Sequence record: PP418985.1
Direction: 5' to 3' (one strand)
Source of the DNA: Escherichia phage UPWr_E1
Length of the DNA: 64,000 nucleotides
Part shown: positions 6,430-62,791 of the stretch, piece by piece
Layout of the letters: each line of letters opens with the position of its first letter
Numbering within the stretch: position 1 is the stretch's first letter
The notes under the pieces: model-generated
The model's database searches: none
What the model saw: only the letters and a program-made list of their open reading frames with translations
What the model was told of the DNA's origin: nothing
Translations under genes and position numbers: made by a program

Positions 6430-6457
6430 TTGACATGTTGGCGAGGTAATGTATAAT
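6430..6457 (+). promoter_or_regulatory. Early promoter
   Basis: TTGACA-16-TATAAT then conserved leader catcgaaac and RBS. Confidence 0.55.
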
Positions 6458-6486
6458 GAACTCATCGAAACAACGGAGGATTAACA

Positions 6487-6816
6487 ATGTTTTTGAATGC
6501 TACCCTTTCCCAGAAAAGTGATAAAATCGAACTTCTGTATGTCATTGCTGATGTAGACGTACAACGAAGAAATATAGATTTAAAAATTCACAAATATTAT
6601 ACTATGAGCGAATATCACGAAATCGAGATCCCACATAGTGTGTATCCCGCATTATTGTTAGGAAAAGGAAATCTAAGTGAATATTCTTTGAAAGTCATCA
6701 AAGATTCTAAATCAATGCTTGCTCATATGGAAAAAGATTTTCTTGATGAAGTTTCCGCGCTAGTTATCAAACTGAAAGAAGAAACAGCACCGCTTTTCAT
6801 GGAACAAAAAGGTTGA
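6487..6816 (+). CDS. Hypothetical protein, 109 aa
   Basis: ORF with RBS ggagga; between gene 32 and frd. Confidence 0.55.
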   Translation: MFLNATLSQKSDKIELLYVIADVDVQRRNIDLKIHKYYTMSEYHEIEIPHSVYPALLLGKGNLSEYSLKVIKDSKSMLAHMEKDFLDEVSALVIKLKEETAPLFMEQKG

Positions 6817-6840
6817 CACCGAATACAGATGATGTATAAT
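6813..6840 (+). promoter_or_regulatory. Early promoter
   Basis: TTGACA-16-TATAAT overlapping the stop of the upstream ORF. Confidence 0.5.
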
Positions 6841-6871
6841 ACAAACATCGAAACAAAGAGAGGATTATATT

Positions 6872-7201
6872 ATGTGGACTGTAGAACAAATCGTAGATGG
6901 AACAGTAAGTATTATCTCGTGTGGCACTATTGAAGAATGCCTTAAAGCCGCTAACCGTGAATGTATTACGGTTTATGAAGCCCGTCGCGGTGATGGTACT
7001 GTGTTAACCAGCGACTATCGATATGAACCAAAAATGATTACCTTTCGTTTCTGGGAAAATGGTGTTAATGTTGGGGTATCTCACTTAAAACGTTTTCGTG
7101 ATTATTCTGACCGTTATTTCATCACACCGGATAACGGTCAAGAATTTAAGACAGCAATCACCGAAGAAAATGTAAACGAAAACTTCTTTAAACTGATTTG
7201 A
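6872..7201 (+). CDS. Hypothetical protein, 109 aa
   Basis: ORF with RBS agagagga. Confidence 0.55.
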   Translation: MWTVEQIVDGTVSIISCGTIEECLKAANRECITVYEARRGDGTVLTSDYRYEPKMITFRFWENGVNVGVSHLKRFRDYSDRYFITPDNGQEFKTAITEENVNENFFKLI

Positions 7202-11686: not shown

Positions 11687-11715
11687 TTGACGCGGGGAGA
11701 AATCCCCGCTATAAT
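11687..11715 (+). promoter_or_regulatory. Early promoter with spacer hairpin (PeSL-like)
   Basis: TTGACG, spacer hairpin gcgggga-gaaa-tccccgc, TATAAT. Confidence 0.5.
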
Positions 11716-11746
11716 ACAACCATCAAAAACAAGTGAGGATTTTATT

Positions 11747-11914
11747 ATGACCAAATTAAAATGTGTTGCTGTAGATTTTGAACTAGCCGATAGCTTTGTT
11801 GTCGGTGATGTATATGATGCTCGACATGATGGGACTTGCTACTACGTTGAGGATGAATACGGCGTAGAATGGGCTATTCTTCCTGATGATAAATGCTTTG
11901 AGGTTGTCGAATAA
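11747..11914 (+). CDS. Hypothetical protein, 55 aa
   Basis: Start at internal ATG after promoter and RBS gagga. Confidence 0.45.
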   Translation: MTKLKCVAVDFELADSFVVGDVYDARHDGTCYYVEDEYGVEWAILPDDKCFEVVE

Positions 11915-13430: not shown

Positions 13431-13903
13431 TATATTTTGTCGATTTAGATTTTACGATCACAGATCCAACGCATCGACTAGCAAAGATGCCAACCGAAAA
13501 TCTTGATAAAGTCGAGTCATGGATCGAATATAACAAGGCATGTGGGGGAGATTCCCCCATTTACGATGTAATCCGTGTTATCAATGCTCTTTCCGACAAC
13601 GGGCATTTGATTTACATCCTCACCGGACGAAGTTCACATGCTTACATGGAAACTGTGGAATGGTTGATCGCTAATGATGTGTGTTTCGATAAAATCTTTA
13701 TGAGAGGTCGCAATGATTCCCGTAAAGACTATCACATCAAATTAGAGGTAATTAAATCCTTTGATAAAGATGAAGTTGTCGGAGTCTTTGAGGATAACCC
13801 AGAAGTGATTAAAGTTCTCAGAGAAAACGGTTATCGTGTCTTTGACGTAGGAAATCACAAAGACAAGACACGAGCGGATATTGCAAATCACGGTCATGAT
13901 TAA
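13427..13903 (+). CDS. HAD-superfamily phosphatase-like protein
   Basis: 158 aa; motif I DLDFTIT (DxDxT), ILTGRS, KDYHIK; ATGA overlap with nrdB stop. Confidence 0.5.
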   Translation: MIYFVDLDFTITDPTHRLAKMPTENLDKVESWIEYNKACGGDSPIYDVIRVINALSDNGHLIYILTGRSSHAYMETVEWLIANDVCFDKIFMRGRNDSRKDYHIKLEVIKSFDKDEVVGVFEDNPEVIKVLRENGYRVFDVGNHKDKTRADIANHGHD

Positions 13904-13915
13904 TGTTTGTTCAAA

Positions 13916-22378: not shown

Positions 22379-22407
22379 TTGACAGGGGATCACCGATCCC
22401 CTATACT
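22379..22407 (+). promoter_or_regulatory. PeSL-type early promoter (hairpin spacer)
   Basis: TTGACA, 17-nt palindromic spacer ggggatcaccgatcccc, TATACT. Confidence 0.55.
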
Positions 22408-22441
22408 ACACACATACCGAAACGAACTAGGAGAATCAATT

Positions 22442-22621
22442 ATGAACTTCAACGAAATCATCGCTAAAATCCGCTACAACGAAGAAACCATTGAACTGAT
22501 GCAAAACAATATCACCAATGGCTATATGATTGCAGCGTCACAAGAAATCATTGATTTGACAGTAGCAGAAAATGCTCAGTTGAAACATCAACTTTCTACG
22601 GCTGGCGTGATTGTGATGTAA
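22442..22621 (+). CDS. Hypothetical protein, 59 aa
   Basis: ATG after conserved RBS aggagaatcaatt. Confidence 0.45.
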   Translation: MNFNEIIAKIRYNEETIELMQNNITNGYMIAASQEIIDLTVAENAQLKHQLSTAGVIVM

Positions 22622-23596: not shown

Positions 23597-23625
23597 TTGA
23601 CAGGGGATCGGTGATCCCCTATAAT
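23597..23625 (+). promoter_or_regulatory. PeSL-type early promoter
   Basis: TTGACA, palindromic spacer ggggatcggtgatcccc, TATAAT. Confidence 0.55.
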
Positions 23626-23659
23626 GCACACATACCAACGAGATATAGGAGAATCAAAA

Positions 23660-23827
23660 ATGTTCCAGACTAAAGCAGAATGCGAAGCATACATTGTAGC
23701 AAACCACGGTGAAGACTACCTGAAATTCGATATCGTAGTAGCACAGAAGATCACCGGAATGGTTGCAAAATATCTGGGTGTTAAAGAAGGTTACTATCCA
23801 AGCAACGCACCGGAAATTAACAAATAA
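23660..23827 (+). CDS. Hypothetical protein, 55 aa
   Basis: ATG after RBS aggagaatcaaaa. Confidence 0.45.
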   Translation: MFQTKAECEAYIVANHGEDYLKFDIVVAQKITGMVAKYLGVKEGYYPSNAPEINK

Positions 23828-29252: not shown

Positions 29253-29281
29253 TTGACAGGGGATCATCGATCCCCTATAAT
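29253..29281 (+). promoter_or_regulatory. PeSL-type early promoter
   Basis: TTGACA, palindromic spacer ggggatcatcgatcccc, TATAAT. Confidence 0.55.
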
Positions 29282-29313
29282 ACACACATACCGAAACGAA
29301 AGGAGAATCAAAC

Positions 29314-29493
29314 ATGAAACACTTAACCATCGAATCGGCAATCATCGCAATCGCTAAAGTTCAAGCGGCTTATAATTGCACTGACATTGAAGCCATTTCA
29401 AAAATGCAAGCAGAAGCCGCAAAAGCAGGTGACGAGAAATCTTTAGATGTTCTCTGCGAAATCAAAGCAGAATTAATTTCAAAAATGTTCTAA
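29314..29493 (+). CDS. Hypothetical protein, 59 aa
   Basis: ATG after RBS aaggagaatcaaac; below track cutoff. Confidence 0.4.
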   Translation: MKHLTIESAIIAIAKVQAAYNCTDIEAISKMQAEAAKAGDEKSLDVLCEIKAELISKMF

Positions 29494-43875: not shown

Positions 43876-46419
43876 ATGTCTAACAAAATCAATGTATTAC
43901 ATCAAACAGAAGGTCCGGTTTATGGTTCCGTTGGTCGTCCACTTCTGTTAAAGATTGTTGTCAGTACAGCAGATTTTAAAGATTTTATAGCAGAATGGAA
44001 GCTGAACGGTGTAAATGTGCCAGCAGAACAAATTTCCGACGCGGATCAGTCTCTGTATATTGAGGAAATGCGAGAAAATCAATTTGGTACATATACATGT
44101 CACATTAAACTGAAAGACGAACCACAGGTCGGTGTAGATATTAAGCCTATTCTTGTACAGCGTAGATTTTTTATTGCACCGCAAGATCAGTCTCCGACGT
44201 ATATTAAAAAACGAATCGGCGAAGAATTAACCCTATTCGCAACACCAGCAATTGAACTAGGTCAACACCCAGAGTTTCAATGGTATCGAAATCATATTCC
44301 GGTAGAACCAGAAAAAATCGAGGACAACCGAACCGTTCATATTGCCCGTGTTGGTCTTATTGATTTTGGCAATTATACGTGTCGTGTTACTGTCCGTGGT
44401 GAACCAGCATCACAATATTGGATTAATCCAATTATTGTAGAAAAGAATGATACCCCTCCTGTAGTGCATCTTAGCGAAGAATATCCTAGCTCTATTACAG
44501 TAGCAGAGGATTCAGCGGTACATCTCAATGTACTTGTTACATCAGATGATAAAGTATCGCCTATTGAGTATACGTGGATTCATAACGGTAGGATTGTTAT
44601 CGAAGAAAACGGAAACTCTTTGGCAATTCCGCATATTCGAAAAGATCAGGAAGGTATCTGGCGTCTTGAGGTAAAACAAGGTGACACTACGGTGTATTCT
44701 AAAGATTGTCATATTGAGGTTGATAGTCAACCATTCTTTAGGATCACACGTCAACCGCAAACTCTTAACGTGTCTGGCGGTGCTTTGGGTTTATTCAGCG
44801 TTGATTATAGAACAAACTATTCACCTGTAAAGATCCAGTGGTATCGTAAAAAGAATACAGAACAGGAGTTTACACCAATTGTAGGTGAGACTAATAAAGA
44901 TCTTCATATTACACCAGCTACTACTGAATTAAACCGAGCACGCTACAAAGCTCGTATCACGTATGGCACAGACCAATACAGAGATTCAGAAGAAGCTGAA
45001 TTGCTAGTAGGTGAAGCATTAACTATTAGAATCACCAAACAACCACAAGCTCTACAAAACGTCCGAGTTTCTTCCTCACAGACGATCACTTGTGAAGCTG
45101 AAACAAACTATGAACATTATCGCTTAGATTATCAGTGGTATAAAGATAACGAATTAATGCCAGGCAAAACATCTAATGTATTGCACTTCTCATCAATCAA
45201 AAAGACAGATGAGGGGCAATATAAGTGTATTGCATCAATGGGTATTTCTGGTCATCGAATTACCGCAGAATCATCACCAGCACAGGTGACAGTAGACAAT
45301 TCAAAGGCATCACTGACTATCACTAAACAGCCAACTGGTGCAACAATTCGCACTGGTGGGTCGTGGTCTATTTCGGTCGAAGCAACATCAAACGATGCAC
45401 TACCGATTCGCTATCGCTGGTTTAAAGACGGCGAAGATCTATTCCCACAAGGCGTTGAACAAAAAAACGTTTACGGTGAAGACCATGCTCAACCTGATTC
45501 GACTGGTGTATATACTTGTCGCGTTTCGGTTGGTTTTGGTGATCACCGAGCGTCTCAAATGTCACATCCAGCAAGGGTGCTAATTAGCGATAATGTGGAA
45601 ATTGTGCCGAATGACTTACAGGTCACCGCACATCCTCATGATAATGACGTTAAGTATAATCAGCGTGTTATCTTAACAGCAAGATCTCAAAATAGCATCG
45701 GGTTAAAACCACATATTCAATGGAAAAAGGATGGTGTTGCTATTCCGGGTGCAAATTCAGAGACTTTAGTCATTGAGCACGCGAAACCATTGGATGCAGG
45801 GGTTTACACCGCAGATATTACCGCAGCAGAAAAAACGGTAACAACCAATCCGGCTACAGTTACTGTAGCAGAGCACAGCAATATTAATATCTTAAAACAT
45901 CCAGTGGATGTGGTTGCAAAAGAAGGACAAACCACCGACATTGTATTGGAAGCTCATGCGGAACATTCTGACGGTGAAACCGAAGTTAGTTATCAGTGGC
46001 ATAAAATTAAAGATGGCGTAGACACTGAAATAAGAGATGCAACAAATAAAACTTTAGTTATCCCTCATGCACAGATCAGCAAGCAAGCTCATCAAGCGAC
46101 CTATTACGCCGAGATAAAAGAAGAGAATGGACACGTTAAACATAGCGAAAAAGTTCGAGTGGTGTTTACTACCGCGAAATTAAAACGCTATGTTCACCCG
46201 ATCCCGTGGCGACGTACATCCTTCCAGTATCAAGGCTATTGGGTTATGGATGAGATTGATCGCTGTAATCGTGAAGGGCTTAACTGGCTTGAGGACTTTA
46301 CGCACACCAAATATCCAGAAGAGATCGAAACTATTGCTGCATCATTGCATCATTATTCAAATACTCATGTATTAGAATCTCGTAATGGTTATCTGGTTGA
46401 TGGTACTCAACTATTTTAA
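43876..46419 (+). CDS. hoc: Hoc-like capsid decoration protein with multiple Ig-like domains (long form)
   Basis: 847 aa; repeated I-set Ig-like units (W[YF]K[DN]G...Y.C); C-terminal capsid-binding-like YVHPIPWRRTSF domain shared with next gene. Confidence 0.65.
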   Translation: MSNKINVLHQTEGPVYGSVGRPLLLKIVVSTADFKDFIAEWKLNGVNVPAEQISDADQSLYIEEMRENQFGTYTCHIKLKDEPQVGVDIKPILVQRRFFIAPQDQSPTYIKKRIGEELTLFATPAIELGQHPEFQWYRNHIPVEPEKIEDNRTVHIARVGLIDFGNYTCRVTVRGEPASQYWINPIIVEKNDTPPVVHLSEEYPSSITVAEDSAVHLNVLVTSDDKVSPIEYTWIHNGRIVIEENGNSLAIPHIRKDQEGIWRLEVKQGDTTVYSKDCHIEVDSQPFFRITRQPQTLNVSGGALGLFSVDYRTNYSPVKIQWYRKKNTEQEFTPIVGETNKDLHITPATTELNRARYKARITYGTDQYRDSEEAELLVGEALTIRITKQPQALQNVRVSSSQTITCEAETNYEHYRLDYQWYKDNELMPGKTSNVLHFSSIKKTDEGQYKCIASMGISGHRITAESSPAQVTVDNSKASLTITKQPTGATIRTGGSWSISVEATSNDALPIRYRWFKDGEDLFPQGVEQKNVYGEDHAQPDSTGVYTCRVSVGFGDHRASQMSHPARVLISDNVEIVPNDLQVTAHPHDNDVKYNQRVILTARSQNSIGLKPHIQWKKDGVAIPGANSETLVIEHAKPLDAGVYTADITAAEKTVTTNPATVTVAEHSNINILKHPVDVVAKEGQTTDIVLEAHAEHSDGETEVSYQWHKIKDGVDTEIRDATNKTLVIPHAQISKQAHQATYYAEIKEENGHVKHSEKVRVVFTTAKLKRYVHPIPWRRTSFQYQGYWVMDEIDRCNREGLNWLEDFTHTKYPEEIETIAASLHHYSNTHVLESRNGYLVDGTQLF

Positions 46420-46426
46420 TATTATT

Positions 46427-46446
46427 GGTCGCCCTTCGGGGCGACC
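46427..46446 (+). other. UUCG-tetraloop RNA hairpin between the two hoc-like genes
   Basis: ggtcgccc-ttcg-gggcgacc; no clear T-run. Confidence 0.35.
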
Positions 46447-46463
46447 TTAACGGAGTTATTTTT

Positions 46464-47696
46464 ATGGCATTTACAGTAGCACTAAAATCAAATAAAAAAT
46501 GTTTCCTTGCTGGCGATACATTTAAATTAACGGCTACATTAGCTGGGGTGGAAGATGGTCCGGTCCCATCAAATGTTACCTATGCATGGACTAAAAATGA
46601 TCAGCCAATTGAAAATGAATCAAATGTATTAACGGTCTCTAACGCAACAGCCGAGAGCGCCGGAAAATATAAAGTATCCGTTACTGACACAGACACACAA
46701 GAAGTGGTAGAATCTGCGGTTGTGTCAATGGCAGAAGCAGAATTAGTAGTTAAAATTAATCATCCATCTAGCTACGTCGCATTCGATGAGGCGGTAGAAT
46801 TAACAACTACGGTTTCATATTCAACCGGATTTGCACCGTCTAGCAATTACCAGTTGCATTATAAATGGGAACAAGATCAAACAAATTTAAACCATAGCGA
46901 AAGCACATTATCGATCAGCAACTTCGTCGATGACAACAATGGCGTTTATAAGGTTACTGTATGGGGCGAGTCAGAAACATCAGCGGACAGCGCCAGTGTT
47001 AAACTTGCAGCAATCTCTATATCTGTAGTTGAAGATGTACCACTGGCAAAAACCGTCGCAATGGGTAAACCGATCACACTACCTTATCGCACGATGGGTG
47101 TTTCTATCGGTGACACGTCAGGTCTTCCGGCATTATCAACTAAACAGTCATGGTATTTGCAGCGAGAAGGACAACCGCGCCCGACACTGATCGGGAGTGA
47201 GGTTGGGGAGGCATTGGAAGGGTTTTCTATCATGCCTAACGGCTATTTGCACAAAGAAGCTGCAACAATGGACGACACCGCTAACTTTTGGTGTATCGTA
47301 GAGTTGCTTCAAGAAATTGACGGGCAGCCAGTACCAATCGAAGAAAAAGGTAGCTCTCATTGCGCACTGGAAGTTGTAGAATCACTTCATAAGATGTTCC
47401 GGTATGTGCACCCGATCCCGTGGCGCAAAACTTCGTTTATCTATATTGGATGGTGGGTATTCGACGAGATCGTTAAATTCAATGAGGCAGGGTTAGAATG
47501 GAGAAACCGTGAAGTTTACGAGGATAGCAAATATGCAAGCGACATCGAGACGATCGCGGCAGCGGAAGAAAAATATAGTGATTGCACTTGCATGGAATCT
47601 CGCAATGGTTTCATGTATCAGTCCAAAGAGTTCCATAAACTGGACCGAGAGACATTAGAGCGTGTCCTGCGCATTCGTGAAACGCCTCCTGCTTAA
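46464..47696 (+). CDS. Second Hoc-like protein (short form)
   Basis: 410 aa from MAFTVAL; Ig-like repeats plus the same C-terminal YVHPIPWRKTSF domain. Confidence 0.6.
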   Translation: MAFTVALKSNKKCFLAGDTFKLTATLAGVEDGPVPSNVTYAWTKNDQPIENESNVLTVSNATAESAGKYKVSVTDTDTQEVVESAVVSMAEAELVVKINHPSSYVAFDEAVELTTTVSYSTGFAPSSNYQLHYKWEQDQTNLNHSESTLSISNFVDDNNGVYKVTVWGESETSADSASVKLAAISISVVEDVPLAKTVAMGKPITLPYRTMGVSIGDTSGLPALSTKQSWYLQREGQPRPTLIGSEVGEALEGFSIMPNGYLHKEAATMDDTANFWCIVELLQEIDGQPVPIEEKGSSHCALEVVESLHKMFRYVHPIPWRKTSFIYIGWWVFDEIVKFNEAGLEWRNREVYEDSKYASDIETIAAAEEKYSDCTCMESRNGFMYQSKEFHKLDRETLERVLRIRETPPA

Positions 47697-48089: not shown

Positions 48090-48364
48090 TGGACAAGAAA
48101 ACAGCGTTAATGGTTTACATGCTACGCGAAGACCACGGTCTTAATTTTGTTGATATTGCTAAAAAGATTGGCGGGTTCAGCGGACAAGATGCGGCTAAGG
48201 CATGGTTGATGGTAAAAGATGCACGAGAGGCTTACGCCAACCGTGAAAAGGTTGTTTATCGTAAACACCACATCAACAAAAAATTTAAAAATAAAGTTCA
48301 AAAACGTGTTGACAAGCCAAATAACACTGTTATAATGGACGCATTCAAACGGGCAATGTCCTGA
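48089..48364 (+). CDS. Small basic protein, possible helix-turn-helix DNA-binding protein
   Basis: 91 aa; LNFVDIAKKIGGFSGQDAAKAW segment; lysine-rich C-terminus. Confidence 0.4.
   Translation: MDKKTALMVYMLREDHGLNFVDIAKKIGGFSGQDAAKAWLMVKDAREAYANREKVVYRKHHINKKFKNKVQKRVDKPNNTVIMDAFKRAMS
48309..48336 (+). promoter_or_regulatory. Early promoter inside 3' end of upstream ORF
   Basis: TTGACA-16-TATAAT. Confidence 0.45.
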
Positions 48365-48410
48365 TTTGTAATTAATATTCTGAATAACTAATCAATAGAG
48401 GTGACTAATT

Positions 48411-48848
48411 ATGAAATTCCGCAAAAACCACGTAGCAATGAAAAAAGCAATGTTTGAAGCATTCAAAGCAGTTGATCAGGGCGGTGTTACTCTGATTGAG
48501 CAAATTAATGTTGATGTTTGGCAGTCTCCGGCGATCACTTGCTCACGTCTGGCGACGGCTGGTCTTCTGAATGTTCACAGCTCTACAGCATACGACGAAG
48601 CATTGCAAGTTATTAAGGCTTTCGCTGGCGACGTTACCAGCAAGTGGGTCTATGAGAATAAAGGTGAAATTGCGGTTGCTCACGTAGGCAACAATATCCA
48701 GATGGAAATCAAGATTAAGGAAGGGTCTAAACGCAATCAGATGCTTGTTCGCTTCCAGCCATACAAAACTAACGTAGTGCCGGATGATCTGGTCATCTCT
48801 AAGAGTAATGTTACCATTCGCCGAAATCAGATCGTTATCAACAAATAA
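48411..48848 (+). CDS. Hypothetical protein, 145 aa
   Basis: ORF with RBS agaggtga. Confidence 0.55.
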   Translation: MKFRKNHVAMKKAMFEAFKAVDQGGVTLIEQINVDVWQSPAITCSRLATAGLLNVHSSTAYDEALQVIKAFAGDVTSKWVYENKGEIAVAHVGNNIQMEIKIKEGSKRNQMLVRFQPYKTNVVPDDLVISKSNVTIRRNQIVINK

Positions 48849-48857
48849 TTAACATTA

Positions 48858-48881
48858 GCCGTCCTTCGGGGCGGCTTTTTT
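48858..48881 (+). terminator. Rho-independent terminator
   Basis: gccgtcc-ttcg-gggcggc followed by tttttt. Confidence 0.6.
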
Positions 48882-48934
48882 GTATATATCATTAACATAA
48901 TTTTAGTTTACATATGCACATTATTAATACAGTT

Positions 48935-48960
48935 TGATTAAATTATGATCAAAACGAAGA
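48935..48960. repeat. 26-bp direct repeat, copy 1, in AT-rich intergenic region
   Basis: tgattaaattatgatcaaaacgaaga; same 26-mer at 49084. Confidence 0.7.
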
Positions 48961-49083
48961 AAGATCTTTAGAACATAGAAAATGTATCTTTGATTAATTA
49001 TTAATCACCACATATTGTAACGCAAATGTTATACTCCGTAGGAGTTCGCGAAGCGATATCCTTTTGTGTAGTTTTTACATATA

Positions 49084-49109
49084 TGATTAAATTATGATCA
49101 AAACGAAGA
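49084..49109. repeat. 26-bp direct repeat, copy 2
   Basis: Identical 26-mer; flanks also similar (tttacatat). Confidence 0.7.
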
Positions 49110-49262
49110 CTTATCTTATAGAATAATAAAAATTTGTTTCGAACATTTATTAATCAATTACTAGAAGTGTTTTATTGCTCGCTGTGCTCGCTTCCGCTAC
49201 GCGGATACTTGTATTTGTTATTAACTTGTAGTATGATATTGCTTTCTATGGAGGAAAATATT

Positions 49263-49850
49263 ATGTTTGACCAGTTACAAGATCTATTTGGAGTAAAACC
49301 ACTTCGTAGATGTGCTTTAATCGGCTCTAGAAAAGCGCCTAGCGACATTTTGATAATGGCTAGTACCATTGGGAGGGTATTGTCAGAAAATCGCGTTGTA
49401 GCGCATTCTGGAGGGGCTTACGGTATGGACAATGCTTTCATGAAGTATTACGATCCAGATTATAGAAAAATTTTCATTCCAAATTGGAAGTTTTATGACC
49501 ACAAGCATAACGGTCATGATGTGATTGCATGGCAAACCTTAGAACAAAAGAATCTGGCGATGGATGAATTAGAACACGTTTATGATAATCCTCGTTCTAT
49601 ACCGTTATACATGCAAAATTTATTTTCTAGAAATGTTGCTCAAGTCTTAGGTGAGACACTTGATGATCCTGTAGATTGTGTGTTATTCTGGGCGAAAGAA
49701 GTTAATGGAATCGTTTCGGGAGGAACTCGAATTGCTGTTTATGTTGCCCGTAGACATGGGATACCATGTTTTAACTTATATCATCAAGAAAATAGATCCG
49801 CCGTCGAAAAAATCTTGGGCGGATCTGATTTGTCTTGGTTAGATATTTAG
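49263..49850 (+). CDS. DprA/Smf-like Rossmann-fold protein
   Basis: 195 aa from ATG after RBS ggagga; ALIGSRKAP..VAHSGGAYGMD and NLFSRNV..SGGTRIAV match DprA core motifs. Confidence 0.45.
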   Translation: MFDQLQDLFGVKPLRRCALIGSRKAPSDILIMASTIGRVLSENRVVAHSGGAYGMDNAFMKYYDPDYRKIFIPNWKFYDHKHNGHDVIAWQTLEQKNLAMDELEHVYDNPRSIPLYMQNLFSRNVAQVLGETLDDPVDCVLFWAKEVNGIVSGGTRIAVYVARRHGIPCFNLYHQENRSAVEKILGGSDLSWLDI

Positions 49851-51092
49851 TTAAGCGTTGTCAATCTCAAGTGGTGGCAGTTCGATTCCTAAAATGTAGG
49901 ACATTTCAGAGCGTCCAGCCATTTTACCCCAATCGTCACCCTTGATGATCTGGTGTTCTTCCTGATCAACTTTTGATGTATATGGGTTGACAGAGAGTGA
50001 ATAACGATTCATAATAGCTACATGATGCTGGAAGCTATTAGGATCAATTACGCTCTTATACGCGCCAGCGCCATCGGCTTCTGTGTATGGGGAGTAGAAC
50101 AGCGAACCTACGCTCTCCATATCACCGATCATGTGCTTACAGCCAACTAGCATATAATCGAACGGCGTTACCGTGTCTGCGTACACTTCCAGACCGCAAC
50201 GTAGACGTCCTTCGCTTAGAGCGTTGTCGGTTTCTTCCATCCATCCGGTAGACTGCAACAGACCAACTACGCGAGAAGATGCTAAAACGTATGTGCCAGC
50301 AAAGGAGGAAGTACGCAACATTTGATTGCTCATTTCGCAAGCATAGCGGTAAAGTTCACGAGCTTGTTTTGGTGCATCCTGAACGCCAACGAGAGAAAGT
50401 ACACCATCAGTGGTGATTCCTTTAATTTTATAGCGAGTTGATACAGTGATCAACTTCTGCATAATATCTTTGTTGATCTCTTCGGAAGCGACAGTAGCCA
50501 GAAGGTCGATCACAGAATTTTCAGAATTGATTTGGCTTGCCTCAAGATCCTGCATTAATTCAGTGGTGAACGAGGTTTTCAGTTTACGAGAACCTACATT
50601 AACTTGCCACTTGTCAAACTGCATAGAGGTAGACGCAATTTCGGTGTTTTTATCTTCAAAGTATTCTACCGATGCACAATCGCTATAGAAACGAATTTTG
50701 TTTGTCATTACGCCTTTAAAGATCGCAGCTTCTGGAGTTGCGGAATCTTCGCTAACTCGACCAGCAACAACAGCTTGATAAACTACGTCGCCAGATTTAA
50801 ACAGATCACCGATCTTGTATTCTTTTTCCTGTGAAAATTCTTCGATCTCTGTACGATCACCAGCCGCGCCACCGTAGGTTGCAGCAGTTCGGAAAGTCAT
50901 CTGACCATCACGATTAAGATAACGTAGGCCGTACAATGCAGATACTGGTTGATCCGTTGGCTGGATTGCTACCAGATCAGAGAAAATCAGGTTGTTTACC
51001 GCGCGAGTTAATGATAATAGTTGCGGTCGCGCTGTCTGGTTAGCTACTGAGGAAGTAGATTCCCGCAACAGTTCAGTAAAAATATGAGTCAT
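49851..51092 (-). CDS. 24: Head vertex protein gp24
   Basis: 413 aa from MTHIFTELL; gp23-like capsid fold; position downstream of gene 23. Confidence 0.75.
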   Translation of the reverse strand: MTHIFTELLRESTSSVANQTARPQLLSLTRAVNNLIFSDLVAIQPTDQPVSALYGLRYLNRDGQMTFRTAATYGGAAGDRTEIEEFSQEKEYKIGDLFKSGDVVYQAVVAGRVSEDSATPEAAIFKGVMTNKIRFYSDCASVEYFEDKNTEIASTSMQFDKWQVNVGSRKLKTSFTTELMQDLEASQINSENSVIDLLATVASEEINKDIMQKLITVSTRYKIKGITTDGVLSLVGVQDAPKQARELYRYACEMSNQMLRTSSFAGTYVLASSRVVGLLQSTGWMEETDNALSEGRLRCGLEVYADTVTPFDYMLVGCKHMIGDMESVGSLFYSPYTEADGAGAYKSVIDPNSFQHHVAIMNRYSLSVNPYTSKVDQEEHQIIKGDDWGKMAGRSEMSYILGIELPPLEIDNA

Positions 51093-60953: not shown

Positions 60954-62791
60954 ACTCGGAAGTCATAAATGCCACCCAGAGAGCGAATCGTGCTGAGATA
61001 TTGCGAAACCTCCATACGGAAGGAAGCGCGAGTAAAGTTATCGTTGTTTTCAAACAGTTTGTATTTGCTTGAATCGCCGATATTCTTTTTCAGCATGTTA
61101 AACAGACGACGAACGTTAATGCGGTCAAACGGGCTAGGAACAGTAGTAGCGGTTTTATCACCCATCAGGATAAACCCTTCACCACCAGCACCAATTACCG
61201 GGTTAATTGCAGCCTGATACAGACGATCACGGTGTGCCTTGCGAGGCTCAATAGCCAGTTTAACTACGTTCATGATCTGACCACGGTTATAACCTGCCGG
61301 ACTCATCCACGGTTGAGATACCGCATCAGTGCGAGCACACAAACCAGCAATATCAGCAGCCAACGGAACCCAGCGGTTTACATCGTTGTATTTGTCATAC
61401 TGATATTTGTAGTTACCATCAATAACCGCGTAAGTGGTATTAATGTTCATGTTGTTGTCTGAATAATTGCTCTTTCCTTCTCGCCATGCGATCAGGTTAT
61501 CAATTGCGGTAGTGACCGGAATATTAACAACAGTGCTACGCGGCGGAGAAACCATCACTAAGCAATCCTGACGCTCATCACCGATGGAAACAGCATGTTT
61601 CTGTACGGTGGAGAATGCATCACCTTCACCCGCACACGCACCAGCAATCAGCAGGTTTACATGAATAGACTCACGTTCAGCAAACAGATCCCAGCCTTTC
61701 ATCATTGCGCCAATAAACGGATCAGCACCAACACCAACACCCGCAGTTGCGGATTCGTTAGCAGAAACACCACCAACCAAAGAGATGATACCACTGAAAC
61801 CATCTACCCAGCCCTGAGCGGTTGCATAGATGTACTGACTAGCACCACGAGCAAAGAAGTCGTCCATATAGATAGAATTGCCGTAAACGTCTTTATCCCC
61901 TTTCAGAGTAGACAGTACATAGGATTCTACCACAACACCATCTCGACGAACAATAAACGCATATTGATTATCATTCTGCGGTGCATATGGAATCAGGTTG
62001 CGTGCTGCGGCACGAGTTCCACCGAACGGATACAGTGTCAATTCAGGTGCTGCCGCTCCGCTAAACGCGCTACGTGCCAGAATCTCAACTTCCAGAGAGT
62101 TACCAATCTCACCAGCATAGATTGCACTTACCGCTGGCATATCATACTTTTTGAGCTTAGTCAAAAATTCTTGATTGGTGATATTGGCGCGGGAAGTCTC
62201 CAGATCCGTTAAGAGAAGACCGGAATCGGTAACAATTTTAGAAATGGTGATCGCCGCATTTGAGTTACCAGTGCCGGAAGTGATTTCTACGGTAAACCCA
62301 TCCAGATTAGGATACACGCCAACGGATTTAGCCAGAGCAATGATTTTCCCGGTTGGGATGAAAATACCTTTAATTTTACCTTCTGTATCTACTTTGGTTA
62401 CTTTACCAGCGGTTTCAACTTCCTGACGATTGTATTTTACTTTAATTGAATCGCCTACTTTGTAGTTAGAACCTTCGTTGGTAATATTAAATTCTACGTT
62501 ACCCGCGAGAGTGGTGGAGTTTTTCGCTTTTTCTGTATTCAGTACACGAACAACACGCAGGTCGTTACCATACTGGAGGAAGTTAGCCCCGCTCATGAAA
62601 TAGTCTGCGGTGTTATTATCCGGCTGACCAAATTTATTAACTAATTCAACTTCATTAGTTACTTGAATAATCTGGAAAGCTGGACCCCATTGAAATTTAC
62701 CTACCAGCGCCGCGCGACCAGTCGCAGATTGTACAATGGTAGTGGAGAGAGTAGTTTCTTTCGTTTCGAAACCCGGTGATAATAGAGTCAT
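60785..62791 (-). CDS. 18: Tail sheath protein gp18
   Basis: 668 aa; size and synteny with 17 and 19. Confidence 0.85.
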   Translation of the reverse strand: MTLLSPGFETKETTLSTTIVQSATGRAALVGKFQWGPAFQIIQVTNEVELVNKFGQPDNNTADYFMSGANFLQYGNDLRVVRVLNTEKAKNSTTLAGNVEFNITNEGSNYKVGDSIKVKYNRQEVETAGKVTKVDTEGKIKGIFIPTGKIIALAKSVGVYPNLDGFTVEITSGTGNSNAAITISKIVTDSGLLLTDLETSRANITNQEFLTKLKKYDMPAVSAIYAGEIGNSLEVEILARSAFSGAAAPELTLYPFGGTRAAARNLIPYAPQNDNQYAFIVRRDGVVVESYVLSTLKGDKDVYGNSIYMDDFFARGASQYIYATAQGWVDGFSGIISLVGGVSANESATAGVGVGADPFIGAMMKGWDLFAERESIHVNLLIAGACAGEGDAFSTVQKHAVSIGDERQDCLVMVSPPRSTVVNIPVTTAIDNLIAWREGKSNYSDNNMNINTTYAVIDGNYKYQYDKYNDVNRWVPLAADIAGLCARTDAVSQPWMSPAGYNRGQIMNVVKLAIEPRKAHRDRLYQAAINPVIGAGGEGFILMGDKTATTVPSPFDRINVRRLFNMLKKNIGDSSKYKLFENNDNFTRASFRMEVSQYLSTIRSLGGIYDFRVQCDTTNNTPDVIDRNEFVASMFIKPAKSINYIMLNFTAVATGADFDEIIGPANQA

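What the first reader, a model, noticed from the sequence alone, without database searches (positions are those of the whole stretch)
48882..49262. AT-rich intergenic region of about 380 bp with direct repeats upstream of a DprA-like gene
An unusually long non-coding stretch for this genome contains two identical 26-mers (48935 and 49084, tgattaaattatgatcaaaacgaaga) with similar flanks, repeated ttattaatca motifs and a GC-rich element gctcgctgtgctcgcttccgc. Each 26-mer holds an ATG opening an 8-10 codon micro-ORF (MIKTKKDL, MIKTKTYLIE). Iteron-like repeats in AT-rich DNA suggest a replication origin, packaging signal or regulatory leader.
Basis: seen in the sequence. Interest (0 to 1): 0.5.

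Follow-up and report, generated by a model that had tools for sequence, protein, structure and literature searches.

The report
Repeated non-coding cassette before DprA-like gene
The long AT-rich gap before the DprA-like gene of this RB49-type coliphage holds two tandem copies of a conserved non-coding cassette (host-factor-like binding sites, promoter-like core, tiny hairpins) that the phage also carries before two late genes; it is real and under selection, most likely a regulatory promoter-hairpin unit, and an origin role is not excluded.

Summary
Window 48849-49262 is a 414-bp gap, the longest and most AT-rich in the window, in a Krischvirus (RB49/Phi1-like) genome. It holds two 73-nt units 149 bp apart whose first 26 nt are identical.

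It is not a gene remnant, tRNA, Rfam RNA or conserved micro-ORF. Within the genus the units vary 4-5 times less than synonymous sites. Six divergent uncultured relatives keep 2-3 tandem units at the same place.

New findings:
- The unit is one of four copies per genome; the others precede late genes 36 and 3.
- Copies within a genome resemble each other more than orthologous copies between genomes.
- Both arms of each unit match the E. coli Fis core consensus: 4 of 5 matches in the window, 4 of 11 in Phi1.
- Each unit is followed by triloop mini-hairpins supported by compensatory changes.
- A separate sigma-70-type promoter and ribosome-binding site serve the DprA-like gene.

Best reading (confidence about 0.4): a PeSL-like promoter-attenuator cassette on a nucleoid-protein platform. 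A role in replication initiation (about 0.2) or as an sRNA gene remains open. No function was tested.

The parts
48411..48848 (+). Upstream gene ORF165 (145 aa, function unknown), driven by a consensus early promoter at 48309-48336
   Evidence: ORF list. Matches phrog_15652, function unknown. Promoter TTGACA-16-TATAAT corresponds to Pe:98401 predicted for RB49. AF2 model has pLDDT 82.8 and no PDB fold match.
48857..48882 (+). Intrinsic terminator of ORF165 (8-bp GC-rich stem, T6)
   Evidence: TransTerm prediction for RB49 at 97821-97838. Annotated as a terminator in several records.
48883..48906 (.). Hypervariable spacer after the terminator
   Evidence: Nucleotide diversity (pi) 0.143 among 11 Krischvirus sequences, against 0.012 in the units.
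48916..48930 (.). Near-consensus Fis-type 15-mer (GCACATTATTAATAC, 1 mismatch). It corresponds to the conserved 'ATTAATTATAC' block that precedes units in relatives.
   Evidence: Read. The block is conserved in the alignment of 17 units. It matches the consensus exactly in L013, L014, L017, L046, L048 and L049.
48935..49007 (+). Unit 1: left arm (26-mer 48935-48960, Fis-type site 48936-50), core, right arm (Fis-type site 48992-49006)
   Evidence: Weak whole-unit hairpin, z = -1.4.
49027..49035 (+). Candidate extended -10 promoter TGtTATACT ('P3')
   Evidence: PWM score 7.0. A -10-like element with A at -11 and T at -7 is kept at the same place in L013, L046, L049 and L017 but is absent in L014 and L016. 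Not verified.
49034..49056 (+). Two mini-hairpins with GNA triloops: hp1 CTCC-GTA-GGAG (49034-44) and hp2 TCGC-GAA-GCGA (49046-56), followed by a T-rich tract at 49060-49076
   Evidence: 93.6% of cells paired across 7 distinct lineages, with 3 pairs showing compensatory changes; slid controls give 26-62%.
49084..49156 (+). Unit 2: 26-mer 49084-49109, Fis-type sites 49085-99 and 49141-55, -10-like TAGAAT 49119-49124
   Evidence: Hairpin z = -2.0. TAGAAT or TATAAT is kept in most units.
49177..49191 (+). GC box GCTCGCTGTGCTCGC (GCTCRC twice, 9 bp apart)
   Evidence: Conserved in L013, L046, L014 and L016. It is a true hairpin, GCGAGC-TTTT-GCTCGC, in L017.
49193..49205 (+). Hairpin hp3, TCCGC-TAC-GCGGA, flush against the -35 of the gene's promoter; terminator-like
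   Evidence: Flagged as terminator-like. Inner 4 pairs are 100% paired in 7 lineages, and one pair shows CG:4 GC:2 AU:1.
49209..49237 (+). Sigma-70-type promoter 'P4' of the DprA-like gene: TTGTAT-17-TATGAT
   Evidence: PWM score 6.8. Kept as TTGTTT, TTGATT or TTGTGT, then 16-17 nt, then TATGAT, TATAAT, TATAGT or TATTAT in 6 of 7 lineages. Not predicted by the RB49 promoter HMM.
49250..49850 (+). Shine-Dalgarno GGAGG (49250-54) and the DprA-like gene (ATG 49263; 195 aa)
   Evidence: phrog_768 at E = 2e-60; Pfam DNA_processg_A below its cut-off. Annotated as ORF164 in Phi1 and RB49.

Best explanation
The gap holds two tandem copies of a non-coding cassette of about 130-150 bp. RB49-type phages carry this cassette four times per genome.

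Anatomy of one cassette:
- An AT-rich imperfect palindrome whose two arms are perfect matches to the 15-bp core consensus of the host nucleoid protein Fis.
- A core between the arms with a -10-like TAnAAT hexamer.
- One to three very short GC hairpins with three-base loops, then a T-rich tract.

After the second cassette come the DprA-like gene's own sigma-70-type promoter and its ribosome-binding site.

Proposed mechanism (inferred, not shown). Each cassette is a compact promoter-attenuator unit of the PeSL kind. A bending protein of Fis type binds the arms. Host RNA polymerase starts in or next to the core and makes a short transcript that stops or pauses at the hairpins. The cassette thereby insulates and tunes the gene-specific promoter just downstream. 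The identical 26-mers are the upstream and -35 part of that unit, kept alike by gene conversion between copies.

Shown: the anatomy, conservation, copy number, hairpin covariation and motif enrichment. Inferred: Fis binding, transcription starts, termination, and any effect on the DprA-like gene.
For: Identity and conservation:
- The window is a Krischvirus; 58 records carry the region at 96-97% identity.
- Purifying selection: pi is 0.012-0.013 in the units, against 0.05-0.06 at third codon positions of the flanking genes and 0.14 just after the terminator.
- Syntenic relatives with DprA-like proteins only 49-86% identical keep a 326-574 bp AT-rich gap with 2-3 tandem units.

Conserved blocks and motifs:
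- The alignment of 17 units gives conserved blocks.
- Fis consensus GNNYAWWWWWTRNNC (PMC3302801; PMC2816674): 4 of 5 matches in the window, 4 of 11 in Phi1, and 1-6 per relative's gap against 0.02-0.06 expected.
- The promoter-proximal site lies 86-100 bp upstream of the estimated P4 start in 5 of 7 lineages.

Promoter and hairpin evidence:
- In L018 the unit cores are good promoters (TTGAAC-17-TATAAT, score 10.8). No other promoter can serve the gene there, because the P4-equivalent -10 abuts the Shine-Dalgarno sequence.
- The hairpins are supported by compensatory changes.
- hp3 is terminator-like and sits flush with the -35 hexamer. This layout is described for PeSLs, whose stem-loops were shown to terminate transcription.

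Other copies:
- Cassettes also lie between a terminator and the TATAAATA promoter of gene 36, and upstream of gene 3. They are always co-oriented with the downstream gene.
Against: - In the window's own clade the promoter-like hexamers are weak: PWM scores are at most 7.2, and unit 1 has TAGAAC.
- The RB49 early-promoter HMM of Nolan et al. predicted no promoter in this gap.
- Promoter-like pairs occur on both strands, as expected in AT-rich palindromes. The scan of 48300-49900 found 4 sites against 5.9 expected.
- T-tracts after hp2 are inconsistent among lineages, so termination is uncertain.
- Fis-site positions (-86 to -100) are not the classical -71 activating position, and spacing between sites is not helically phased.
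- Unit interiors diverge fast between lineages, which a host factor alone does not explain.
- Two copies precede late promoters that need no sigma-70 upstream element.
Confidence: 0.4

Rival explanations
1. The cassettes are replication initiation sites. RB49-type phages lack MotA and so lack T4-type middle-promoter origins. A promoter plus an AT-rich unwinding core, flanked by protein-binding arms, would give an R-loop or a protein-opened bubble. The four copies would be three origin loci.
For: - This is the most AT-rich 400 bp of the genome, with a unique cluster of palindromic protein-type sites.
- The element is multi-copy, as T4 origins are (at least five). T4 oriE uses an early promoter and has iterons, and T4 origins lie among late genes.
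- All three loci adjoin late-gene clusters: genes 24/23, 36 and 3.
- Copies co-evolve within a genome, as iterons do with an initiator.
- No MotA or middle promoters were found in RB49.
Against: - No initiator candidate was found. The ORF165 model has no DNA-binding fold match.
- The units are composite palindromes, not evenly spaced iterons.
- GC skew only follows gene orientation.
- The loci are about 5 kb from, not at, the positions syntenic with T4 oriE, oriF and oriG. This distance estimate rests on my own knowledge and is a post hoc comparison.
- The whole-unit inverted repeat is lost in three lineages.
Confidence: 0.2
2. Each cassette is a gene for a small trans-acting RNA of about 60-95 nt. 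The right arm would be a single-stranded 5' region, and the two triloop hairpins plus the U-tract would form the 3' end. The four copies would be paralogues.
For: - A -10-like TAnAAT lies in most unit cores.
- Sense-strand asymmetry: GNA loops on the + strand in hp1 and hp2 of all lineages, and a G-U pair in hp2 of the gene-36 copy.
- The hairpins show compensatory changes.
- The architecture resembles Hfq-type sRNAs (my own knowledge).
- Paralogues are homogenised within genomes.
Against: - Predicted RNAs fold no better than shuffles, with z from +0.1 to -1.9.
- There is no Rfam match.
- U-tracts are poor in several lineages.
- The promoter is weak in unit 1.
- No target was identified.
Confidence: 0.15
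3. The cassette acts at the RNA level inside read-through polycistronic transcripts. It would be a processing or stability element, like RNase III sites of T7 or ERIC-like elements, lying between an upstream gene and the next.
For: - Long AU-rich hairpins in L014, L017 and L018, with z from -3 to -6.
- The position between genes 35 and 36 and between ORF165 and the DprA-like gene, co-oriented with both.
- U-G wobble pairs in the left-arm palindrome, read from the sequences.
Against: - The whole-unit hairpin is absent in L013, L046 and L049 (z about 0 or positive) and weak in the window.
- A strong terminator precedes the cassettes.
- The gene-3 copy lies in a divergent gap with no upstream co-oriented gene.
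Confidence: 0.1
4. The region is neutral debris: a decayed gene (for example RNA ligase 2, which occupies this place in other T4-like genera) or empty PeSL cassettes left by deletions.
For: - In Jiaodavirus and Gelderlandvirus, rnlB directly abuts the DprA-like gene with no gap.
- The left part of each unit resembles the usual early 5' leader of this phage, CATC(G/A)AAAC(G/A)A...GGAG.
Against: - tblastn finds no similarity to Rnl2 or to the inserted endonuclease-like gene.
- Diversity is 4-5 times lower than at synonymous sites.
- The structure is conserved in relatives down to 49% protein identity.
- The hairpins covary.
Confidence: 0.03
5. The region is a leader-peptide (micro-ORF) attenuator or a packaging signal.
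For: - Micro-ORFs start in each 26-mer.
- In several relatives the frame contains tandem ATA codons, read.
Against: - No Shine-Dalgarno sequence precedes them.
- The start codon is absent in L013, L046 unit 2, L049 and L017 unit 2.
- Lengths range from 8 to 23 codons. The Krischvirus unit 1 ORF stops at a TAG where L046 reads on.
- T4-type packaging needs no unique pac site (my own knowledge), and the element has four copies.
Confidence: 0.03

Closest known systems
PeSLs (promoter-early stem-loops) of RB49 and Phi1 (Arbiol et al. 2010, PMC2839356; Comeau et al. 2014, PMC4122927)
   Same: Both occur in the same phages. Both are repeated intergenic cassettes that combine an AT-rich region, sigma-70-type hexamers and a stem-loop. 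The stem-loop can sit upstream of the -35 or just after the -10, and a Shine-Dalgarno sequence and start codon follow. Both are recombination-prone and homogenised.
   Different: - Typical PeSLs in this window have consensus TTGACA/TATAAT and a polyG/polyC stem between the hexamers.
- The cassette here has weak hexamers, triloop mini-hairpins, palindromic arms with Fis-type sites and a fixed 4-copy distribution.
- It lies next to conserved genes (3, 36, DprA-like) rather than next to ORFans in hyperplastic regions.
- It is not mentioned in the held text of the PeSL paper.
Fis-binding upstream regions of E. coli promoters (rrn P1, tyrT, the fis promoter itself)
   Same: Both have several consensus 15-mers clustered next to promoters in AT-rich DNA. 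Sites overlapping the -35 and lying downstream of the start resemble fis autoregulation (my own knowledge).
   Different: Binding is untested. The positions (-86 to -100, or about -37 and +20 relative to the core promoters) are not the classical -71. The sites are far closer to the consensus than most natural Fis sites. I know of no role for Fis in T4-type phages.
T4 replication origins (oriE with 12-nt iterons and an early promoter; oriF/oriG with a promoter plus unwinding element)
   Same: Both involve a promoter plus AT-rich DNA, repeats, several loci per genome and a position among late genes.
   Different: There are no evenly spaced short iterons, no MotA promoter, no repE genes and no sequence similarity. 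Origin activity is untested.
Bacterial intergenic palindromic repeats (ERIC, Correia elements)
   Same: Both are dispersed imperfect palindromes of about 100-150 bp in intergenic DNA. Both can carry host-factor sites and promoter-like hexamers (my own knowledge).
   Different: No target-site duplication was seen. There is no presence/absence polymorphism: all 58 genomes have the same loci. The element is in a phage genome and has only four copies.

Membership tests
PeSL (Arbiol 2010) | Strong sigma-70 consensus promoter with an AT-rich upstream region | tested here: inconclusive
   In the window the best hexamer pairs score 6.8-7.2, and the RB49 promoter HMM found none in this gap. Relatives have near-consensus pairs in the unit core: L018 TTGAAC-17-TATAAT and L013 TTGACA-17-TGTAAT.
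PeSL (Arbiol 2010) | Adjacent stable stem-loop acting as terminator or attenuator | tested here: met
   hp1, hp2 and hp3 are conserved with compensatory changes, and hp3 is terminator-like. Their stems are only 3-6 bp with triloops, not polyG/polyC. Terminator activity was not tested.
PeSL (Arbiol 2010) | Located in hyperplastic regions immediately upstream of ORFans | tested here: not met
   The copies lie upstream of the DprA-like gene, gene 36 and gene 3, in the virion and core modules.
Iteron-type origin (lambda, plasmids, T4 oriE) | Cluster of short, evenly spaced direct repeats bound by an initiator | tested here: not met
   There are two 73-nt composite units, each an inverted pair of 17-19-bp sites. 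Site spacing is 56, 93 and 56 bp in the window and differs in relatives.
Iteron-type origin (lambda, plasmids, T4 oriE) | Adjacent AT-rich unwinding region | tested here: met
   GC is 0.28-0.29, the lowest 400 bp in Phi1.
Iteron-type origin (lambda, plasmids, T4 oriE) | Cognate initiator gene, and initiation activity | not testable with these tools
   ORF165, always adjacent to the gap, has no Pfam, PDB sequence or fold match. No replication data are available.
Fis-dependent regulatory region | Sites matching GNNYAWWWWWTRNNC | tested here: met
   Four exact matches in 414 bp against 0.05 expected. These are 4 of 5 in the window and 4 of 11 in Phi1, and the motif is enriched in every relative's gap.
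Fis-dependent regulatory region | Fis binding, and a Fis-dependent change in activity | not testable with these tools
   Requires footprinting or EMSA and infection of a fis mutant.
Known RNA families / tRNA | Match to a curated covariance model or a tRNA fold | tested here: not met
   No Rfam match reaches its gathering score, and there are no tRNA or tmRNA genes.
MITE-like mobile repeat | Presence/absence polymorphism among close genomes; target-site duplication | tested here: not met
   In the blastn search, 56 of 58 Krischvirus records have 4 places and 2 have 3. The gene-3 copy is also present in a divergent relative. No flanking duplication is seen.
Leader-peptide attenuator | Conserved translated micro-ORF with a ribosome-binding site | tested here: not met
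   There is no Shine-Dalgarno sequence, start codons are missing in several units, and stop positions vary.

The most novel reading that the evidence does not exclude
The four cassettes are the replication initiation sites (or replication-coupled enhancers of late transcription) of RB49-type phages, which lack the MotA-dependent origins of T4. Each would be a host-factor-bound, AT-rich, promoter-containing palindrome placed next to late genes. All copies would co-evolve with an unidentified phage-encoded partner.
Probability: 0.18. Interest if true: 0.8.

Novelty: new variant of a known kind. Interest (0 to 1): 0.5.

Why it matters
RB49-type phages are used in phage therapy, and they are the reference 'pseudo-T-even' genomes. 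Their origins of replication are not known to me, and how they time gene expression without MotA is only partly understood.

This work defines a small, conserved, four-copy non-coding cassette with three notable properties:
- It occupies the most AT-rich spot of the genome.
- It carries near-perfect sites of Fis type.
- It changes in concert at loci that lie 36 to 88 kb apart.

That gives concrete targets for deletion, footprinting, transcript mapping and marker-frequency experiments.

If the cassette is only a promoter-attenuator unit, it extends the PeSL concept to conserved modules and points to a link between phage gene control and host growth state. If it is an origin or a late-transcription enhancer, it would answer where these phages start replication.

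Tried and rejected
- Rfam and ARAGORN on the window, on six relatives and on the gene-36 copy found nothing above threshold.
- The gene-remnant idea was tested with tblastn of Rnl2 and of the inserted endonuclease-like protein against all the gaps. No hit had an E-value below 1.
- The micro-ORF idea was rejected because it is not conserved.
- The whole-unit hairpin was considered as the conserved feature and rejected. Its z-score is about 0 in L013, L046 and L049.
- ORF165 was considered as a DNA-binding partner. Pfam, PDB sequence search and Foldseek on a confident model gave nothing.
- A scan of viral contigs for the palindrome TGATTAATNATTAATCA gave 23 loci. All but the known Krischvirus contig carried a single site, which I judge to be about chance level (no expectation was computed).
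- The one metagenome scan with a DprA-like alignment gave only two near-identical loci.
- GC skew only tracks gene orientation.
- There is no T4 late promoter TATAAATA in the gap.
- One literature search for Krischvirus transcriptomics returned nothing relevant. Desplats et al. 2002 is not held.
- DnaA-box, IHF and ArcA-like readings of the arms were checked by eye and dropped as inconsistent among lineages.

Full report
**What the window is.** The region 48300-49900 matches 58 phage records at 95-99% identity. All are Krischvirus, such as RB49, Phi1, JSE and GEC-3S. In Phi1 the gene order, in window orientation, is: uvsY, uvsW (opposite strand), inh, hoc, ORF167, 24.3, ORF165, a 414-bp gap, ORF164 (DprA-like), then genes 24, 23, 22 and 21 on the opposite strand.

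**Check of the observation.** The 26-mer occurs exactly twice, at 48935 and 49084. There is no third copy at up to 3 mismatches and none in shuffles. The similarity extends to 73-nt units that are 73% identical and 149 bp apart.

The gap runs from the ORF165 stop (48848) to the ATG at 49263, which is preceded by GGAGG. It starts with a strong intrinsic terminator at 48857-48882. That terminator was also predicted for RB49. At 414 bp it is the longest true gap in the window, where the median is 57 bp. Its GC content is 0.29. In Phi1 it is the most AT-rich 400 bp of the genome.

**It is functional DNA, not debris.** Among 11 Krischvirus sequences, nucleotide diversity (pi) is 0.012-0.013 in the units. 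It is 0.05-0.06 at third codon positions of ORF165 and the DprA-like gene. It is 0.14 in the 24 nt after the terminator.

Searches with the DprA-like and ORF165 proteins found uncultured relatives with the same gene order. Their DprA-like proteins are 86, 70, 58, 57 and 49% identical to the window's. Each has a 326-574 bp AT-rich gap with two or three tandem units.

Other T4-like genera (Jiaodavirus, Gelderlandvirus) have RNA ligase 2 directly abutting the DprA-like gene, with no gap. The gaps show no similarity to Rnl2. There are no tRNA genes and no Rfam family matches. The micro-ORFs lack a Shine-Dalgarno sequence, lose their start codon in several units, and end at different places.

**Anatomy.** An alignment of 17 units gives this order of blocks:
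- a block ATTAATTATAC(T);
- a left arm TG..YA...TCAAACG;
- a core with (G)ATCTTATA or CTCTATAAT;
- a right arm TTGRWTAATWATTAAYCA;
- then CACYAC.

Both arms match one 19-nt pattern in opposite orientation. However, the whole-unit hairpin is strong only in L014, L017 and L018 (z from -3 to -6). It is weak in the window (z -1.4 and -2.0) and absent in L013, L046 and L049. So the palindrome as such is not the conserved feature.

After unit 1 come two mini-hairpins with GNA triloops, at 49034-44 and 49046-56. After the last unit come a GC box and a third hairpin, at 49193-49205. The stems change by compensatory substitutions between lineages, and 94-100% of cells are paired, against 18-62% in slid controls.

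The third hairpin abuts a promoter-like pair, TTGTAT-17-TATGAT (49209-49237). This pair is kept in six of seven lineages, 15-29 nt before the start codon in five of them and 166 nt in L013.

**Fis-type sites.** The arms fit the 15-bp high-affinity consensus of E. coli Fis, GNNYAWWWWWTRNNC (PMC3302801). The refined form is GNtYAaWWWtTRaNC (PMC2816674).
- Four of the five matches in the 64-kb window lie in the gap, at 48936, 48992, 49085 and 49141.
- In Phi1, four of eleven genome-wide matches lie here, and the other seven are isolated.
- Every relative's gap has 1-6 matches, against 0.02-0.06 expected. The block in front of the units is often a further match.
- The site nearest the gene lies 86-100 bp upstream of the estimated transcription start in five lineages.

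Whether Fis or another dimeric protein binds these sites is untested.

**Promoter-like elements.** A simple position-weight scan finds hexamer pairs on both strands.
- Rightward pairs in the unit core are good in L018 (score 10.8), L014, L017 and L016. In the window they are weaker: TAGAAT in unit 2 and TAGAAC in unit 1.
- In L018 the core promoter of unit 2 is the only plausible promoter for the DprA-like gene, because the downstream -10-like hexamer abuts the ribosome-binding site.
- Leftward pairs (TTGATN, 16-17 nt, TATAAT) score 8-10 in L013, L014 and L017. L046, L048 and L049 show equivalent pairs when read by eye from their sequences.
- An extended -10 (TGtTATACT, 49027-35) lies before hairpin 1 in five lineages.
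- The published RB49 promoter model found no early or late promoter in this gap.

All promoter assignments here are tentative.

**The cassette is not unique to this locus.** A profile of the 17 units finds two more copies in Phi1, outside the window.
- One lies between the gene-35 terminator and a TATAAATA late promoter of gene 36.
- One lies upstream of gene 3, followed by AATAAATA.
- Each has a unit plus two triloop hairpins (GTGCC-TAC-GGCAC; GTCGC-GAA-GCGAT) and is co-oriented with the downstream gene.

Of the 58 Krischvirus records, 56 show four places and 2 show three. A divergent relative, probably the phage of L013, also has a copy upstream of gene 3.

Unit interiors are 76-95% identical within a genome. 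Orthologous copies of the two genomes are only 63-68% identical, although the flanking proteins are 86-93% identical. The copies therefore evolve in concert. The cause could be gene conversion or co-evolution with a shared partner. The hairpins behind the units stay locus-specific.

**Interpretation.** The data fit a compact promoter-hairpin cassette related to the PeSLs described in these phages. The stem-loops of PeSLs terminate transcription and can sit upstream of the -35 or after the -10. This cassette differs from typical PeSLs of the window, which have consensus hexamers with a GGGGATC...GATCCCC stem between them. It has weak hexamers, palindromic Fis-type arms, triloop hairpins, four fixed copies, and positions next to conserved genes.

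I take it to be a protein-bound promoter-attenuator unit that makes a short transcript and shields or tunes the promoter downstream. My confidence is about 0.4.

An origin function is a serious rival, at about 0.2. In its favour:
- extreme AT-richness and clustered sites;
- several loci next to late genes, as in T4;
- no MotA in RB49;
- concerted change of the copies.

Against it:
- no initiator candidate;
- no regular iterons;
- no independent skew signal.

The sRNA and RNA-processing readings are weaker. Nothing here tests function.

**Verdict.** The element is a new variant of a known kind of phage regulatory cassette. It is moderately interesting, and more so if the origin reading proves true.

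Noticed in passing
Phi1 (NC_009821) 149927-150053 (+) and 62505-62595 (-); loci L053 and L052: Two further copies of the cassette (unit plus two triloop hairpins) lie outside the window. One sits between the gene-35 terminator and a TATAAATA promoter of gene 36. The other sits upstream of gene 3. They are present in all 58 Krischvirus records.
   Followed up: partly
L013 (1912-2185), L057 (550-660) and the Phi1 copies: Cassette copies within one genome are 76-95% identical, but orthologous copies of the two genomes are only 63-68% identical. This is concerted evolution across loci that lie tens of kb apart in Phi1 (about 36 kb from the gene-3 copy to the DprA gap).
   Followed up: partly
window 43876-46419 and 46425-47696: Two adjacent Ig-domain (Hoc-like) ORFs of 847 and 423 aa lie where Phi1 has inh, ORF168.1 and a single 404-aa hoc. 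L014 and L018 show the same pair of large Ig proteins.
   Followed up: no
L050 1996-2810: In one relative a 197-aa protein (weak DUF723 match, endonuclease-like) and a 73-aa ORF are inserted between ORF165 and a copy of its terminator.
   Followed up: no
window 48883-48906: The 24 nt right after the ORF165 terminator are hypervariable among Krischvirus genomes (pi 0.14, 63% variable columns), next to very conserved units.
   Followed up: no
L015, L016, L047, L048, L049 (contig ends): Five metagenomic contigs break inside this gap. The likely cause is that the tandem and dispersed repeats confuse assembly.
   Followed up: no
window 6430-6500, 6813-6880, 11687-11750, 22379-22450, 23597-23660, 29253-29320: Typical early promoters of this phage share a leader motif after the -10, (A)CACACAT(A)C(C)GAAACGAA..GGAG. 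The left part of each unit (ATCAAAACGAAGAAAG) resembles it.
   Followed up: partly
window 48411-48848 (ORF165): ORF165 always sits directly upstream of the cassette-bearing gap in all relatives. Its AF2 model (pLDDT 82.8) is helical at the N-terminus and beta-rich at the C-terminus, with no PDB fold match, so its function is unknown.
   Followed up: partly
window 13897-13915: An isolated near match (1 mismatch) to the arm pattern TGRTTAANNNNTGAWCAAA. It was not examined.
   Followed up: no
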